NCBI GenBank assembly: GCA_000990005.1 | Contig: LBPF01000003.1 | Coordinates: 71,479-135,478 of the forward strand | DNA length: 64,000 nt | Source: Candidatus Woesebacteria bacterium GW2011_GWB1_33_38 | GTDB lineage: Bacteria; Patescibacteriota; Microgenomatia; UBA8517 | Direction of reading: 5' to 3' | Shown here: piece after piece, positions 44,586 through 51,601 of the stretch | Numbering within the stretch: position 1 is the stretch's first letter | Layout of the letters: every line of letters begins with the position of its first letter | Translations under genes and position numbers: made by a program | The notes under the pieces: model-generated | Told to the model about the DNA's origin: nothing | The model's database searches: none | Seen by the model: the letters and a program-made list of their open reading frames with translations, nothing else

Positions 44586-45792
44586 GACAATTTTAATACT
44601 TCTTTTGGTTTTAGCTTGCGGTTACATAAGCTTAGGCTATCCTATTTTTGGAAAAAAATTTGAATTACAATTAGGCCTTGACCTTTCAGGTGGTAGTCAT
44701 TTGGTTTTTGAGGCTGATACAGAGAATTTAGAATCTAGCAAAAAAGAGAAAGCACTATCTTCTTTAAGAAACGTAATTGAAAAGAGAGTTAATCTATTTG
44801 GCGTATCTGAAAGTAATGTGACTACATCCTCATTTGAAGGCAAAGATAGAATAATAGTTGAGCTTCCAGGAATAAATGATCCAAAAGAAGCAACTAATTT
44901 AATAGGTCAAACGGCGCAGTTATTGTTTGCTGAAATTGTCGGAGAGAATCAAATAGTTCCGACAAATTTAACAGGTGCAGATTTAAAGTCTGCAGATACT
45001 ACTTTTGATCAAAATTCTGGTAAGCCTTCAGTTTCAATTGAGTTTAATGAAGAAGGCTCCAAAAAATTTGAGGAAATAACAGGAAAGACAATTGGTAAAC
45101 CATTAGCTATTATTTTGGATAATAATATTATTTCAGCTCCCGTAGTCAATGAAAAAATTATTGGGGGTAAAGCTCAGATTTCAGGAAATTTCACTGTTGA
45201 TGAAGCTAAGAAATTAGAAGTGCAACTTAACGCTGGTGCACTTCCTATTCCTGTTAAATTGGTCGAAGAAAAAACAATTGGTGCAACTTTAGGTGCCGAC
45301 TCTGTTAATAAAAGTATAAAAGCAGGCGTAATTGGACTTGTTATGGTATCTCTTTTTATGATATTAATTTATGGCAGGTACGGACTGGTTGCGGATTTCG
45401 CATTACTTACATTTGGGGTTATAACTTTTGCTTTGTATAAATTAATTCCTGTTACTTTAACACTTCCTGGAATTGCAGGATTTCTTCTTTCTGTTGGTAT
45501 GGCTGTTGATAGTAACATATTGATATTTGAAAGATTAAAAGAAGAGATAAAATTAAGACCTTTTGCATCGGCACTTGAGATTTCATTTGGTAGAGCTTGG
45601 GATTCGATAAGAGACGCAAACGTTGCTACTCTTGTTACTGCCTTTATCCTTGCAAACCCCCTTGATTGGTCATTCTTACATGTCTCAGGGCCTGTCAGAG
45701 GCTTTGCAATTACTCTAGCTTTAGGTATTGCGATATCTTTATTTACTGGAATTGTTGTAAGTCGTAATTTACTTAGATTGTTTGTTAAATAA
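44557..45792 (+). CDS. secD: Protein translocase subunit SecD
   Basis: Large periplasmic domain plus 6 C-terminal TM helices; followed by secF. Confidence 0.85.
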   Translation: MEMKKNLLVKTILILLLVLACGYISLGYPIFGKKFELQLGLDLSGGSHLVFEADTENLESSKKEKALSSLRNVIEKRVNLFGVSESNVTTSSFEGKDRIIVELPGINDPKEATNLIGQTAQLLFAEIVGENQIVPTNLTGADLKSADTTFDQNSGKPSVSIEFNEEGSKKFEEITGKTIGKPLAIILDNNIISAPVVNEKIIGGKAQISGNFTVDEAKKLEVQLNAGALPIPVKLVEEKTIGATLGADSVNKSIKAGVIGLVMVSLFMILIYGRYGLVADFALLTFGVITFALYKLIPVTLTLPGIAGFLLSVGMAVDSNILIFERLKEEIKLRPFASALEISFGRAWDSIRDANVATLVTAFILANPLDWSFLHVSGPVRGFAITLALGIAISLFTGIVVSRNLLRLFVK

Positions 45793-46594
45793 TATGCAGT
45801 GGATGAAATACAGATTAATTTATTTGATAATATCAGGAGTTTTTTTGACCGCAGGAATATTTAGTTTATTTAAATGGGGATTAAATCTTGGAATTGATTT
45901 TACTGGTGGGGTAGTTACTGAGTACAAATTATCAAGCGGAGAAATTGAAACAAAAAAATTTGGTATAAAGACAGACGAAGAGATAACAAAAATAAGAGAA
46001 GATTATAAAAATCAAAAGGCTACTGAACTGCGATTTGAAACCGTTGGACCTTCAATTGGGCCAGAGTTAATTAAAAAAACTTTTTATGCGCTAGCCATGT
46101 CTGCAATACTTATACTTGTTTGGGTAGCAATACAATTTAAAAGTATTAAATTTGGAGTTTCTGCAATTTTAGCCATGATTCATGATTCACTTGTTTTGGT
46201 TGGTGGATTTTCACTTTTGGGTCATTTTGCGGGAGTTGAAGTTGATTTTTTGTTTGTAACAGCAGTTTTGACGATCCTTTCATTTTCAGTTCATGACACA
46301 ATTGTTGTATACGATAGGATACGTGAGAAACAGAAAAAATATGATCCTACTTTAGGATCTGATATTAAAGCAATTGCTAATTCTGCATTAACTGAAACAA
46401 TGGTTAGAAGCTTAAATAATTCTTTTACTATTATATTTATGTTACTATCATTGGTTTTATTGGGTGGAGATACTGTCAAATGGTTTGCTGTAGCACTTCT
46501 GATTGGAACTATTTCAGGAACCTATTCTTCTCCCTTCGTTGCCGTCCCCATTCTTGTTACTTGGGAAGAATGGGAAAAAAGACTTAAAAAATAA
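45782..46594 (+). CDS. secF: Protein translocase subunit SecF
   Basis: SecF topology and motifs. Confidence 0.85.
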   Translation: MLNNMQWMKYRLIYLIISGVFLTAGIFSLFKWGLNLGIDFTGGVVTEYKLSSGEIETKKFGIKTDEEITKIREDYKNQKATELRFETVGPSIGPELIKKTFYALAMSAILILVWVAIQFKSIKFGVSAILAMIHDSLVLVGGFSLLGHFAGVEVDFLFVTAVLTILSFSVHDTIVVYDRIREKQKKYDPTLGSDIKAIANSALTETMVRSLNNSFTIIFMLLSLVLLGGDTVKWFAVALLIGTISGTYSSPFVAVPILVTWEEWEKRLKK

Positions 46595-46649: not shown

Positions 46650-46907
46650 ATGCAAAAAGATTTTTTTGATGGACGAGAAAAGGTTGGAAAATTTGAGAAT
46701 GAAGAAGAAGCAACAAAGCTCTTGTCAAGTGGTGCTACTATCTTAAAAGGGGTTGAAATGGTATTGGGTAGAAGAGTTGATGCAAAAGAATTTAAATCTG
46801 ACGAAACACTCAGAGATATAATGAATCCCACATTGGATGGAGAAACAAGATATGCTCTACTTTTTATGAAAAAAAGTTTAGATCCAAAAGAATCGAATCT
46901 TCAATGA
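46650..46907 (+). CDS. Hypothetical small protein (85 aa)
   Basis: ORF downstream of motif copy 3. Confidence 0.4.
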   Translation: MQKDFFDGREKVGKFENEEEATKLLSSGATILKGVEMVLGRRVDAKEFKSDETLRDIMNPTLDGETRYALLFMKKSLDPKESNLQ

Positions 46908-46912
46908 TAAAA

Positions 46913-47203
46913 TTATTCAAACTTCAAAATTAGTTTTGTATTAAAAACTTCTGCAATTCTTTTCAAAAAAGACAATGATGGGTTTCCTGACATGGTTTCA
47001 ATTCTAGAAATTGCGGCTTGAGATGTCCTGAGTCTATTAGCTAAAGTTCTTTGAGAAATATTTTTTTTAATTCTTTTCTCGATAATTTGTTTTGCTAATA
47101 AATATTCAGGTTCAGATTTTTTCCATTCAGCTACAAACTCATGATCATTCATAAGCTCTTTGAAGTGATCATCCAGACTGTAAAGTTTTTGTTTATTGCT
47201 CAT
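46913..47203 (-). CDS. XRE-family HTH antitoxin (HigA-like)
   Basis: ..NISQRTLANRLRTSQAAISRIE.. HTH; downstream of the RelE/HigB-like gene. Confidence 0.7.
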   Translation of the reverse strand: MSNKQKLYSLDDHFKELMNDHEFVAEWKKSEPEYLLAKQIIEKRIKKNISQRTLANRLRTSQAAISRIETMSGNPSLSFLKRIAEVFNTKLILKFE

Positions 47204-47236
47204 ACAAATATGATGATATCATATATGATATCATTG

Positions 47237-47584
47237 TCAATGTCCAAATCTGTTGATCCAGTCATGGTGTCGATCAATAGAAATTTCTAAGTCTTTCTTT
47301 GGAGTTTTTTGCTTTTTCTTGAAAAAACCATGTAATAGTAAAACATCTTGGTTATAAATTATTGCATGAATTATCCTGATATTATCTCTACCTAGAATTC
47401 GTATTTCCCATAAATTGGTTCCTGATAGCTTTTTAGTATAAGGTGATGAAAACTTTAGACCATACTCTTCAATTATTCGTAGTATACGAACAACTTTTGG
47501 TTTTTGTTGTTTGTTCAGAGACATAATAAACTCTTTGATGGGGATGTTATTTAAGATTGTGGTGTAGTAATATATCTTACTCAT
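47237..47584 (-). CDS. RelE/ParE-superfamily toxin, HigB/Gp49-like
   Basis: 115 aa; toxin-first operon order with an XRE antitoxin; ..WEIRILGRDNIRIIHAI.. Confidence 0.6.
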   Translation of the reverse strand: MSKIYYYTTILNNIPIKEFIMSLNKQQKPKVVRILRIIEEYGLKFSSPYTKKLSGTNLWEIRILGRDNIRIIHAIIYNQDVLLLHGFFKKKQKTPKKDLEISIDRHHDWINRFGH

Positions 47585-47690
47585 CTTTTATGCCCTCAAG
47601 TCTTTCAAGTAAAATTTTGCGTTCATTGGGTAGGTTATTTTCAACAACTTCATTAAATAATTTTTCTAAAATTTTATTCGTTTAATTAAT
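47585..47690 (-). pseudogene. Degenerate duplicate of the 3' end of cca (~30 codons: ..TNKILEKLFNEVVENNLPNERKILLERLEGIKDE*), no start codon
   Basis: Manual reverse-complement translation; compare the intact cca C-terminus ..ILEKLFNEVVENKFLNERGVLLKQIKELK*; shared 23-nt identical core ACTTCATTAAATAATTTTTCTAA at 47648-47670 and 48643-48665. Confidence 0.7.
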
Positions 47691-47702
47691 TTAATTTGGA
47701 CT

Positions 47703-48575
47703 CTAAGTAGATTTCTTAATAAGTACGACTCCGACATCTTGAAACCTTTCGCCATTCTCTCGGGGAATTAAATCTAATTCTGCTTTTTCAACAGGACCGT
47801 CGAAAAGTATTTCCTGCTTGAATATTGTAAATCCCATGTTTTTTGCTTCCATTTGCCATTTATCAATAACATCAAAAGAATTGGGTTTATCATTTTGTGT
47901 TTGCAACCAGTCAAAACTTGGCGAATTTTGATCCATCAATGAAAATGAGAAAATTAATTTTCCTTCAGGTTTTAATATTCGCCATATTTCGATCAATGCT
48001 TCCCTCGTTTTTCTTACATTATTGATTCCAAAACATACAACTATTGGAATAGAATTATTATTAAATGGTAAGTGGGTCGCACTAGAAGTTATCGGTACAA
48101 TGGTATTTTTCCCATGGAGAGTTTGAATGAGTTTGTTGGTTCCCACTAAAACATCGGTATCAAGATCTGTTAAATATATAACTGAGTTTTCTGTTGCTGG
48201 TAACAAATTTCTAATCAGAAGACCTCTACCTGTAGCTATGTCTAGAATAGTTGTATTATTTTTAGTGAGATTATTAACAATAAAACTGATCATTTTTTCC
48301 ATTCTTAATTTTGATTTTGGTTTAGCTAAAGTGCTTTGTGTTTCATCTAGCAGGAGGTTTTCCTTTGGATTACGTAATTTTTTACCCCATACAAATTTTT
48401 TAGGTAGTTTTATTTTTGTTTCTAAGATAAGTACTTCCTCATCGATAGAAAATTCATGCGAATTTTGACAAATAATTTTATTCGAAGAAACAAATCGAAA
48501 CTGTTTATTACAGTATAAACAATGAAGAACTCTATGTATTTTATTAGTTTTAGTATTTTTAATATTTATTGTCAT
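47703..48575 (-). CDS. RlmA/RrmA-like class I SAM-dependent rRNA (guanine-N1) methyltransferase with N-terminal Zn-ribbon
   Basis: CxxC..CxxxH zinc motif (HCLYCN..ICQNSH) as in RlmA; SAM motif I ILDIATGRGLL; ..LKPEGKL.. Confidence 0.6.
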   Translation of the reverse strand: MTINIKNTKTNKIHRVLHCLYCNKQFRFVSSNKIICQNSHEFSIDEEVLILETKIKLPKKFVWGKKLRNPKENLLLDETQSTLAKPKSKLRMEKMISFIVNNLTKNNTTILDIATGRGLLIRNLLPATENSVIYLTDLDTDVLVGTNKLIQTLHGKNTIVPITSSATHLPFNNNSIPIVVCFGINNVRKTREALIEIWRILKPEGKLIFSFSLMDQNSPSFDWLQTQNDKPNSFDVIDKWQMEAKNMGFTIFKQEILFDGPVEKAELDLIPRENGERFQDVGVVLIKKST

Positions 48576-48578
48576 AAA

Positions 48579-49934
48579 TTATTTTAATTCTTTTATCTGT
48601 TTTAGTAAAACGCCTCTTTCATTCAGGAACTTATTTTCTACTACTTCATTAAATAATTTTTCTAATATTTCTCCAACTTTTGGACCTGATGGAATTTTTA
48701 AAATTTCCATGACATCTTTGCCATTTACTTTGAGGTCTTTTATAGAAAAAGGCTGTTTTTGTACCTGCACTAGTCTTGTTTTAAACTCTTCAAGTCTCCA
48801 ACTTGTTTCTCTTGCACCCCCACCAAGTCTGTCCGCAACCCTTAGGGCTAACATATCCTCTACATTTTCAAGACCGATATTTCTTAAAAATCTTCTAATT
48901 GCAGAATCTGTTTGATGTTCATCAACAGTAAATTGATGGAATCTGACAAGTTTTACAAACTTTTCTTTTTCTTTTGCTGAAAACCTAAGTCTATCTGCAA
49001 TATTAATTGCAATTTTGGTAGAAACCATTTCGTGGTTATAAAAAGTTATGATCCCTGAATCTAATTTTTTATATGTTTGGGGTTTGCCGATATCATGAAT
49101 TAATGTTGCAAATCTTGTGACTGGATCTTCTGATTTACATTCCTTTAAACTCATTAAAAGGTGATTTCCCACATCATAAATGTGATGTCTTTGAGGTGAT
49201 TTTTGTTCAACCCCAAAACATTTCATAAGTTCGGGGAGAATTTCTTGCATTAACCCCGTGTCTTTAAGAAGAACTATCCCATTATAGGGATTAATACTTT
49301 TTAAAATTTTGAAGAGTTCATCCTTTATTCTTTCTTTGGCAATTTTATTGATCAAAGTTGAGTTTGTCTTTATTGCCTCTAGTGTATTTTTTTCTATTTC
49401 AAAATTTAATTCTCCCCCAATTCTCACAGCGCGCATCATACGAAGAGCGTCCTCATTAAAACGTTCAGAAGGATCTCCAACAGCCCTGATTAATTTATTC
49501 TTTAGGTCATCTAGTCCGCTGTATTTATCGATAATTTGGCATTTATCATTTGTCATTTGGCATTGAAGCGCAAGAGCATTTACAGTGAAATCTCTGCGCG
49601 CCAGGTCTTCTTCTAAAGTCTTACCCCAGATGACCTTGTCCGGCCTTCTGTTATCTGAATAACCGTGCTCAGTTCTAAATGTTGTAATTTCAAAAGGTCT
49701 GTCGAGGTTCTCAAATGAAATACCTACAGTACCAAAAGAATTGTCGTAAAAACCATCGGGATATATTGTTAAAATTTCGGAAGGCTGTGCATTTGTTGTG
49801 AAGTCCCAGTCATATACAATATGACCCATAAGAGCATCTCGAACAGCACCCCCTACAACATAAATTTCAAAATTTGCTTTAGCAAATTTTGCCATAAATT
49901 GTTTTACTTCATCTGGAAGTTTGAAATTAGTCAT
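48579..49934 (-). CDS. cca: CCA-adding tRNA nucleotidyltransferase with HD domain
   Basis: Pol-beta NTase head ..GGAVRD..DWDF.., HD ..HHIYDVGNH.. Confidence 0.88.
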   Translation of the reverse strand: MTNFKLPDEVKQFMAKFAKANFEIYVVGGAVRDALMGHIVYDWDFTTNAQPSEILTIYPDGFYDNSFGTVGISFENLDRPFEITTFRTEHGYSDNRRPDKVIWGKTLEEDLARRDFTVNALALQCQMTNDKCQIIDKYSGLDDLKNKLIRAVGDPSERFNEDALRMMRAVRIGGELNFEIEKNTLEAIKTNSTLINKIAKERIKDELFKILKSINPYNGIVLLKDTGLMQEILPELMKCFGVEQKSPQRHHIYDVGNHLLMSLKECKSEDPVTRFATLIHDIGKPQTYKKLDSGIITFYNHEMVSTKIAINIADRLRFSAKEKEKFVKLVRFHQFTVDEHQTDSAIRRFLRNIGLENVEDMLALRVADRLGGGARETSWRLEEFKTRLVQVQKQPFSIKDLKVNGKDVMEILKIPSGPKVGEILEKLFNEVVENKFLNERGVLLKQIKELK

Positions 49935-49936
49935 TT

Positions 49937-51601
49937 ATGATATTATATCAGAGTATGAAATGGCAGATTTTAAGTAAAGGAAAAGATATCATAAAAGAGC
50001 TTCTTAAGAATAGGAACATAAAAACAAAAAAAGAAATTGATGAATTTTTACAGCCGAAGAATCCTGCAGAAATTAATATACAGGAATTAGGAATAGGAAA
50101 AGAGGAATTAGAAAAAGTAATAAAAAAACTTCAGACAGCAAAAGATAAGAAGGAAAAAATTGTTGTTTTTGGAGATTATGATTGCGATGGAGTATGTGCT
50201 ACAGCCATACTTTGGGAAACATTATATAAATTAGGTTTTGACGCCATGCCTTATATTCCCGATAGATTTGAAGAAGGATACGGGTTCAAAACAGGGAGTC
50301 TTGAAAAACTCCAAAATTTCAATCCGCCAGCTGGAGGACTAAATCCTAAATTAATAATTACTGTAGATAATGGAATAGTTGCTTACGATGCAATTGACGA
50401 AGCTCAAAAAAGAGAGATAGATGTAATAGTTGTAGACCATCACACAAAAGGAGACAAAAAACTTTCTACGTCCTACATTCTACATTCTACTGCTGTGTGT
50501 GGAAGTGCACTAGCTTGGTTTTTATCCCGTGAGCTGTCTTACAGGTTCGGAACCCGTAAAGCAGGTTCCGAACCTAACAGAATAGAGCCTGTCATGGGTT
50601 TGGATTTTGTTGCATTAGGCACAGTTGCAGATCAAATGCAGCTTTTGGGAATTAATAGGTCATTGGTTAAATATGGCTTGGAAGATTTACAAAAAACAAA
50701 AAGAGTAGGGCTAAAAGCTTTAATCAAAAGTGCAGGTTTAGATAAAGTCGGAGTATATGAAGCAGGCTATATATTAGCTCCCAGGATTAATGCTATGGGT
50801 AGACTTTCCCATGCTCTAGATTCTTTAAGGCTTCTTTGTACAAGAGATACAAAAAAAGCTGAGACGCTAGCCAAAGTTCTGAGTGAGACGAATATAGAAA
50901 GGCAAAAAATTGTAGATGATGTTTTGGTTAAAGCAATTCAGTTGGTAACTGAAGAAAAGGTAGTAGTTATAGAAGGTGATTATCATGAAGGTGTAATAGG
51001 TCTTGCATCGGGAAAAATCACAGAAAAGTTATATAGACCATCGATTGTTTTGTCGCACGGCGAGAAGGTATCAAAAGCATCTGCTAGATCAATTTCGGGA
51101 TTTAATATTATTGAAGCGATCAAAGAAACAGGATTAATCTTGGAAGGTGGAGGGCATCCAATGGCTGCTGGTTTTTCAATTGAAACCTCTAAAATTTCAG
51201 AGTTCAGAACAAAGATAAATAAATTAAGTCAAGACAAGTTAACAGATGAGATTTTAGAAAAAAAATTAAAAATTGATTTAGAACTGGATTTTGAAAATAT
51301 AGATAATGATTTAGTCAAAGCACTAGAGAGTTTTGAACCAACAGGTTATGGTAACTTTTCTCCAGTATTTATGACAGAAGGTGTAAAAGTTGTTGAAATT
51401 AAACCAGTAGGGAGTGATGGAAAACATTTAAAATTAAAACTTTCCCAAAACGGAATTGTTTTCGATGCAATCTGGTTCAGTTTTTCTAAGTCCTTAGCCC
51501 TCATTCCTAATTCCTCAGTAAACGTTGCATACACCATTGAAACTAACACCTGGAACAACCATTCCCAAACACAGCTAAAGGTTAAAGATATCAAGACTTA
51601 G
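49937..51601 (+). CDS. recJ: Single-stranded-DNA-specific exonuclease RecJ
   Basis: DHH (..VVDHH..) and DHHA1 (GGGH) motifs. Confidence 0.88.
   Translation: MILYQSMKWQILSKGKDIIKELLKNRNIKTKKEIDEFLQPKNPAEINIQELGIGKEELEKVIKKLQTAKDKKEKIVVFGDYDCDGVCATAILWETLYKLGFDAMPYIPDRFEEGYGFKTGSLEKLQNFNPPAGGLNPKLIITVDNGIVAYDAIDEAQKREIDVIVVDHHTKGDKKLSTSYILHSTAVCGSALAWFLSRELSYRFGTRKAGSEPNRIEPVMGLDFVALGTVADQMQLLGINRSLVKYGLEDLQKTKRVGLKALIKSAGLDKVGVYEAGYILAPRINAMGRLSHALDSLRLLCTRDTKKAETLAKVLSETNIERQKIVDDVLVKAIQLVTEEKVVVIEGDYHEGVIGLASGKITEKLYRPSIVLSHGEKVSKASARSISGFNIIEAIKETGLILEGGGHPMAAGFSIETSKISEFRTKINKLSQDKLTDEILEKKLKIDLELDFENIDNDLVKALESFEPTGYGNFSPVFMTEGVKVVEIKPVGSDGKHLKLKLSQNGIVFDAIWFSFSKSLALIPNSSVNVAYTIETNTWNNHSQTQLKVKDIKT

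What the first reader, a model, noticed from the sequence alone, without database searches (positions are those of the whole stretch)
46913..49934. RlmA-like rRNA methyltransferase plus HigB/HigA-like TA module inserted at the 3' end of cca, with the cca tail duplicated
On the minus strand the order is cca (49934-48579), an RlmA-like Zn-ribbon methyltransferase starting 3 nt after the cca stop, a ~100-nt degenerate copy of the last ~30 codons of cca (47690-47585), a RelE/HigB-like toxin whose ATG overlaps the relic's stop, and an XRE antitoxin. The relic has no start codon. It encodes TNKILEKLFNEVVENNLPNERKILLERLEGIKDE, against the intact cca end ILEKLFNEVVENKFLNERGVLLKQIKELK. The two copies share an identical 23-nt core in the same orientation and bracket the methyltransferase gene. 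This is the footprint of a cassette inserted inside the cca 3' end with regeneration of the gene end. RlmA-family enzymes (m1G745/m1G748 of 23S rRNA) include the macrolide-resistance determinant TlrB, so the cargo could be a mobile rRNA-modification or resistance gene.
Basis: partly seen in the sequence, partly recalled or inferred. Interest (0 to 1): 0.72.

Follow-up and report, generated by a model that had tools for sequence, protein, structure and literature searches.

The report
Displaced cca gene tail marks insertion
In a Woesebacteria (CPR) genome, a methyltransferase gene with its own replacement end for the essential cca gene was recombined into the 3' end of cca, pushing the old cca end and its linked toxin-antitoxin pair downstream; this is a clean recombination footprint, not a resistance cassette.

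Summary
On the minus strand the order is cca, then a methyltransferase (MT) 3 nt after the cca stop, then a start-less copy of the last 31 cca codons whose stop overlaps the higB ATG, then higB and higA. The two tails share a 23-nt identical core (z 12.6 against shuffles).

Close relatives settle which gene arrived. L064/L065 (cca 84% aa identical) and L066/L067 have cca, higB, higA and secF with no MT and no duplication. Their intact cca tail is the orthologue of the window's relic. So a unit made of a new tail and MT was inserted next to cca.

A second lineage (L047/L050) has the reciprocal stack: cca, higBA, relic tail, MT. Its relative L045 has only cca and MT. L047 and L050 also share a sharp recombination breakpoint inside cca.

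This matches "C-terminal displacement": homologous recombination anchored in a conserved gene, with a non-homologous join at the other end. There is no integrase, no attC-like fold, and no copy of the MT on phage contigs or plasmids.

The MT has RlmA(I) as its closest solved fold, but it fails the RlmA sequence models. Its distant relatives carry Trm112p-like ribbons instead. A resistance role is unsupported. Interest is moderate.

The parts
48579..49934 (-). cca (CCA-adding tRNA nucleotidyltransferase), 451 aa, intact. The body resembles relatives L001 and L064 up to about 48643.
   Evidence: It is 90% aa identical to L001 and 84% to L064.
48604..48670 (-). Direct-repeat copy 1, inside the intact cca. 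The 23-nt identical core lies at 48643-48665.
48579..48642 (-). MT-linked replacement end of cca (...VVENKFLNERGVLLKQIKELK*). It is 81-82% identical to MT-linked tails of other lineages (L045, L062, L059 upstream relic), 63% to the window's own relic, and 50-63% to the intact L064 tail.
47703..48575 (-). Class I SAM methyltransferase with an N-terminal C-x2-C...C-x3-H ribbon, 290 aa. It starts 3 nt after the cca stop.
47675..47702 (-). Junction spacer between the MT stop and the relic. It may hold a degraded trace of the cca SGPK codons (AGTCCAAA against GGTCCAAA). The MT carries 2-3 extra C-terminal codons (ST*) compared with its homologues.
   Evidence: The trace is an inference.
47577..47681 (-). 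Displaced original cca end (relic). It has no start codon and encodes TNK-ILEKLFNEVVENNLPNERKILLERLEGIKDE*. Repeat copy 2 lies at 47608-47674 and the core at 47647-47669. Its stop overlaps the higB ATG, exactly as in the intact cca-higB junctions of L064, L066 and L050.
47237..47584 (-). higB-type toxin (Gp49/HigB, PF05973), 115 aa.
47213..47240 (-). Promoter-like site for higA (TTGACA, 16 nt, TATCAT, with TG; 11 of 12 matches). It overlaps two copies of the 10-nt palindrome ATGATATCAT (47234-47225 and 47222-47213), a presumed HigA operator. The palindromes are conserved in L046 and L049.
46913..47203 (-). higA-type XRE antitoxin (HTH_3), 96 aa.
46650..46907 (+). orf85, function unknown, convergent with higA. 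It is conserved (89% aa) at the same place in the MT-free relatives L064/L065, so it belongs to the resident backbone.
45782..46594 (+). secF, the conserved right flank of the variable slot. It is convergent with cca.
49937..51601 (+). recJ, the conserved left flank. It is divergent from cca.

Best explanation
The gap between the convergent genes cca and secF is a variable slot in this group of Woesebacteria. It holds alternative accessory modules, and each module is welded to its own version of the last ~20 cca codons. One module is the RlmA-fold methyltransferase, with tails ending ...LLK.IKELK* or ...LNK*. The other is higBA, with tails ending ...K(D/N)E* where the stop overlaps the higB ATG.

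The window's ancestor had cca, higB, higA, orf85 and secF, as L064/L065 still do. DNA from a relative that carried cca followed by MT then recombined in. The left crossover was homologous, inside the cca 3' end, at or just after the 23-nt core. The right end, just past the MT stop, was joined non-homologously about 30-55 nt upstream of the crossover in the resident copy.

This event had three results. cca was completed by the incoming tail. MT was added. The resident tail, together with higBA, was pushed about 1 kb downstream as a start-less relic.

This is C-terminal displacement. It could occur by homology-facilitated illegitimate recombination. It could equally occur by Campbell-type integration of a small circle released from an array like L059, in which MT is flanked by two cca tails. 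No dedicated recombinase is needed.

That higBA was kept rather than replaced fits its addictive nature.

What is shown: the duplication, the orthology of the relic, the MT-free relatives, the reciprocal stack, and the breakpoint inside cca. What is inferred: the enzymology of the join, the donor, and the selective role of the toxin-antitoxin pair.
For: 1. The duplication is real and highly significant.

2. MT-free, relic-free, fully syntenic relatives exist. L064/L065 match the window at cca 84%, secF 87%, orf85 89% and higA 85% aa. L066/L067 are a further example.

3. The relic is the orthologue of the intact L064 tail. Its middle 27 nt match 24/27, against 17/27 for the window's intact tail. 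It has the same length and the same ...DE* overlap with the higB ATG.

4. The 3' part of the window's intact tail groups with MT-linked tails of other lineages at 81-82% identity. The tail-MT junction is conserved in L059 and L062.

5. The reciprocal stack exists. L047/L050 have cca, higBA, relic tail, MT and secF, while their relative L045 has only cca, MT and secF. That relic is in frame in L046/48/49 and frameshifted in L047/L050, so it is decaying.

6. In both stacks where polarity can be inferred, the newcomer is the module next to cca.

7. L047 and L050 are about 70-75% identical up to the ADRLGG|GARETSW codons of cca, about 250 nt before the stop. From there to the contig end they are about 100% identical. 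This is a homologous crossover inside the cca 3' region.

8. Relic lengths vary: about 10 nt in L062, about 75 and 165 nt in L059, and about 90-115 nt in the window and L050. Some relics are absent (L060). This is expected for non-homologous joins followed by deletion.

9. There is no integrase or transposase within about 8 kb on either side, no attC-like fold, and no copy of the MT on phage contigs or plasmids.

10. The same model has been published for T6SS effector-immunity arrays and rhs loci (PMC5361080).
Against: - No donor with a near-identical tail and MT unit was found. All other MTs are at most 70% identical.
- Composition does not mark the MT as foreign. Its GC is 30%, against 34% for the window, and higBA is equally low.
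- The MT-free relatives could in principle be deletion products of recombination between the two repeats. That would move the insertion earlier in time but would not abolish it.
- The left ends of the relics in the window and in L050 fall within a few nt of each other, at the G-E/N-I-L-E-K codons, and possibly both at the SGP codons. A purely random join does not predict this.
- L047/L050 and the short Logan contigs (L059-L063) come from metagenome assemblies, so chimerism cannot be fully excluded for those loci.
Confidence: 0.7

Rival explanations
1. The array of cca, MT, relic and higBA is old. Relatives without MT (L064/65, L066/67, L001) lost it by homologous recombination between the two direct repeats. 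The window then shows the ancestral stacked state rather than a lineage-specific insertion.
For: Direct repeats of about 90 nt with a 23-nt identical core would allow precise excision that restores an intact cca-higB junction. MT, higB, higA, cca and secF all differ by a similar amount (about 66-75% aa) between the window and the L045/L050 lineages, so none looks recently imported.
Against: It needs at least three independent precise deletions, in L064/65, L066/67 and L001. The L064 tail is uniformly relic-like rather than a visible t1/t2 hybrid. The stack still needs an original insertion event, so this changes the timing and not the mechanism.
Confidence: 0.12
2. Distal addition. MT was resident next to cca. 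The higBA-orf85 block arrived from a relative, anchored by homology in secF, and dragged along the last ~100 nt of the donor's cca as a passenger.
For: It predicts the same structure, since each relic tail is always linked to the gene downstream of it. L062 and L050 share higB at 93% aa, but MT at only 66% and the cca tail at 77%, so TA blocks do move between lineages.
Against: The closest relatives with the same backbone, including orf85 at 89% and secF at 87%, have higBA directly after cca and no MT. So higBA-orf85 is the resident state in this clade. The first 39 nt of the relic are 90% identical to both the window's own cca and L001, so no foreign donor is visible there.
Confidence: 0.1
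3. A dedicated cassette system. The cca tail or its 23-nt core is a recombination site, comparable to attI/attC or to the attachment site of an integrative element that regenerates the 3' end of its target gene. MT and higBA units are shuffled in and out by a site-specific recombinase encoded elsewhere.
For: The units are compact: one gene or operon plus the tail. They occur in either order (window against L050). Each starts close to the same cca codons. In L059 the MT is flanked by two tails.
Against: No integrase or transposase lies in the unit or within about 8 kb. The repeat has no significant single-strand fold (z from -1.8 to +1.2). Relic boundaries differ by up to about 150 nt among L059, L062 and the window. 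In L050 the two copies share no long identical core. A second tail copy was found only in loci that carry both the MT and higBA (window, L047, L050) among the cca loci screened, and none in the 43 cca loci from species-representative genomes.
Confidence: 0.06
4. The similarity is due to chance, to AT-rich low complexity, or to an assembly artefact.
For: The region is AT-rich (30-34% GC). One short contig (L054) ends exactly at the two cores.
Against: z is 12.6 against dinucleotide shuffles. tblastn gives E 2.8e-9. The sequence is identical in four independent assemblies. The relic is orthologous to an intact tail in L064. L054 is explained by a small-k assembly break at a 23-nt repeat.
Confidence: 0.01

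Closest known systems
C-terminal displacement, or sequential displacement, at rhs, CDI and T6SS effector-immunity loci (Jackson et al. 2009 BMC Genomics; Poole et al. 2011; Kirchberger et al. 2017 Sci Rep, PMC5361080)
   Same: A conserved 5' gene part acts as the homologous anchor. Alternative 3' ends are each tied to a downstream partner gene. An incoming module is added next to the conserved gene. The old 3' end, now without a start, is pushed downstream together with its partner. The published mechanism is homology-facilitated illegitimate recombination. Single-module relatives and stacked arrays coexist.
   Different: Here the conserved gene is a housekeeping enzyme (cca), not a toxin. The exchanged tail is about 20-30 codons of an ordinary C-terminal helix, not a toxic domain. 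The cargo is a methyltransferase or a type II TA pair. The organism is a CPR bacterium with a very compact genome. Both orders of the same two modules are seen.
Integrative elements that regenerate the 3' end of a protein-coding target, such as e14 and phage 21 in E. coli icd, and islands in tRNA genes (from my own knowledge, not checked in the paper library)
   Same: The insert carries a substitute gene end. The displaced original end remains as a direct-repeat pseudo-end at the far junction.
   Different: Those elements are several kb to tens of kb long, encode a tyrosine integrase and use a defined attachment core. Here the insert is 996 nt holding one gene. No integrase is present, and junction positions vary between lineages.
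RlmA(I)/RlmA(II)/TlrB 23S rRNA m1G745/m1G748 methyltransferases (PDB 1P91; role of RlmAII and TlrB as in PMC4605293 and PMC6851288, listed)
Bacterial methyltransferases with a fused Trm112p-like ribbon (PF03966 with Methyltransf_11/25)
   Same: The nearest full-length sequence relatives outside the small family (E 1e-29 to 1e-16) have this architecture. Several match PF03966 at or near threshold.
   Different: The window protein itself does not reach PF03966. These proteins are uncharacterised, so they give no functional information.
higBA type II toxin-antitoxin modules
   Same: A Gp49/HigB-family toxin lies upstream of an XRE-HTH antitoxin. A palindromic operator is present.
   Different: The toxin start is embedded in the stop of the upstream gene (cca or its relic). 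The strongest promoter-like site lies between toxin and antitoxin, not upstream of the toxin.

Membership tests
RlmA family (23S rRNA m1G745/m1G748 methyltransferase, including TlrB) | Significant match to curated RlmA family models (NCBIfam; Pfam PF21302 Zn_ribbon_RlmA) | tested here: not met
   NCBIfam lists only sub-cutoff UbiE/MenG-type hits. Pfam gives generic Methyltransf_11/25/31. PF21302 appears only in one homologue, at E 0.037 and 14.5 bits against a cutoff of 27.
RlmA family (23S rRNA m1G745/m1G748 methyltransferase, including TlrB) | N-terminal Cys/His zinc ribbon fused to a class I SAM methyltransferase fold | tested here: met
   C19, C22, C36 and H40 are nearly invariant in 12 homologues. 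The AF2 model has pLDDT 89, with four short strands before the Rossmann core.
RlmA family (23S rRNA m1G745/m1G748 methyltransferase, including TlrB) | RlmA is the nearest solved structure over the whole length | tested here: met
RlmA family (23S rRNA m1G745/m1G748 methyltransferase, including TlrB) | N1-methylation of G745 or G748 in hairpin 35, and a macrolide or tylosin phenotype | not testable with these tools
   This needs biochemistry or genetics.
Trm112p-like ribbon-methyltransferase fusions | PF03966 match at the N terminus plus Methyltransf_11/25 | tested here: inconclusive
   The window protein and its close homologues give no PF03966 hit. Distant full-length relatives do: P0018 scores 23.8 bits against a cutoff of 22, and others score 17-21 bits.
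higBA type II toxin-antitoxin system | HigB/Gp49-family toxin gene directly upstream of an XRE-HTH antitoxin gene | tested here: met
   PF05973 at E 5e-17 covering 1-88 of 90 positions. HTH_3 at E 7e-13. The genes are 33 nt apart.
higBA type II toxin-antitoxin system | Toxicity of HigB and its neutralisation by HigA | not testable with these tools
   This needs expression experiments.
Class II CCA-adding enzyme (cca) | PolyA_pol head, RNA-binding domain, HD and the C-terminal tRNA_NucTran2_2 domain, all intact | tested here: met
   One search finds all four domains, with tRNA_NucTran2_2 reaching residue 445 of 451. NCBIfam CCA models match at E 1e-83 to 1e-89, below their equivalog cutoffs.
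Integron gene cassette | IntI integrase and attI nearby, and an attC imperfect palindrome that folds as single-stranded DNA | tested here: not met
   No recombinase lies within about 8 kb. DNA folds of both repeat copies on both strands give z from -1.8 to +1.2.
Integrase-driven element that regenerates its target gene end (e14 or phage 21 type) | The insert is bounded by direct repeats of the target 3' end, and the insert encodes an integrase | tested here: not met
   The repeats are present. However, the 996-nt insert holds only the MT.
C-terminal displacement array (rhs, CDI or T6SS type) | A conserved 5' gene part with alternative 3' ends, each co-inherited with a specific downstream gene | tested here: met
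   MT-linked and higB-linked tail types occur across lineages.
C-terminal displacement array (rhs, CDI or T6SS type) | The displaced, start-less 3' end is kept downstream with its partner gene, and relatives exist with single modules | tested here: met
   Stacked arrays: window and L047/L050. Single modules: L045 and L051 for MT only; L064-L067 for higBA only.
C-terminal displacement array (rhs, CDI or T6SS type) | Recombination breakpoints in the conserved part of the anchor gene | tested here: met
   L047 against L050 shows a breakpoint at L047 position 3207, about 250 nt before the cca stop. Both are metagenome contigs.
C-terminal displacement array (rhs, CDI or T6SS type) | The exchanged tip is a toxin domain and its partner is the cognate immunity gene | tested here: not met
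   The tip is the ordinary C-terminal end of cca. The partners are a methyltransferase or a complete TA pair.

The most novel reading that the evidence does not exclude
The last ~30 codons of cca serve as a dedicated docking site for small gene cassettes that carry no integrase (tail plus MT, tail plus higBA, and others as hinted by L059). These cassettes would circulate among Woesebacteria as small circles and insert in either order. That would make it an integron-like exchange platform built on an essential gene in CPR bacteria. The near-coincident left ends of the relics in two reciprocal arrays would be its signature.
Probability: 0.07. Interest if true: 0.8.

Novelty: new variant of a known kind. 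Interest (0 to 1): 0.42.

Why it matters
This is a well-resolved natural example of how accessory genes are added in ultra-small CPR genomes without any mobile-element machinery. Recombination is anchored in an essential gene, the incoming DNA supplies a new gene end, and the old end is left as a dated scar. Four kinds of locus are available for comparison: the empty state, both single-module states, both stacking orders, and a breakpoint inside the anchor gene. Together they make the direction of the event readable, which is rare for uncultivated lineages.

The finding also corrects a tempting over-reading. The cargo is not a recognisable macrolide-resistance rRNA methyltransferase. It is a rare methyltransferase with an RlmA-like fold and no known substrate, and it keeps close company with cca. 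Its repeated linkage to a tRNA-maturation gene makes an RNA substrate worth testing.

Tried and rejected
- RlmA membership by sequence. The PDB phmmer search, NCBIfam, Pfam at E 10 on the N-terminal 100 aa and the profile search against PDB gave only a weak hit at E 0.004. Membership is rejected; only the fold resemblance is kept.
- attC-like or other structured DNA in the repeat. DNA folding of both copies on both strands was not significant.
- Rfam search of the odd GC-richer flanks of L046, L049, L059 and L060 found nothing. The L046/L049 flank turned out to be an IS with an rve transposase.
- Looking for cca-tail duplicates as a general CPR phenomenon. Each cca locus was searched with its own tail, and second copies appeared only in the window, L047 and L050.
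- L054, a contig that runs from core to core, was considered as evidence for a circular tail-MT molecule. This was rejected because the 23-nt repeat explains an assembly break at small k.
- Using L057/L058 to measure constraint on the relic failed, because they are 100% identical to the window across the locus.
- Composition (GC and GC3) as a marker of foreign origin was not informative.
- The promoter scan found no promoter-like site inside the relic for higB.
- MT on phage contigs or plasmids: none found.
- The afdb50 fold library was unavailable.
- Polarity could not be decided from the tails alone. It was resolved only after the HigB-guided look-ups.

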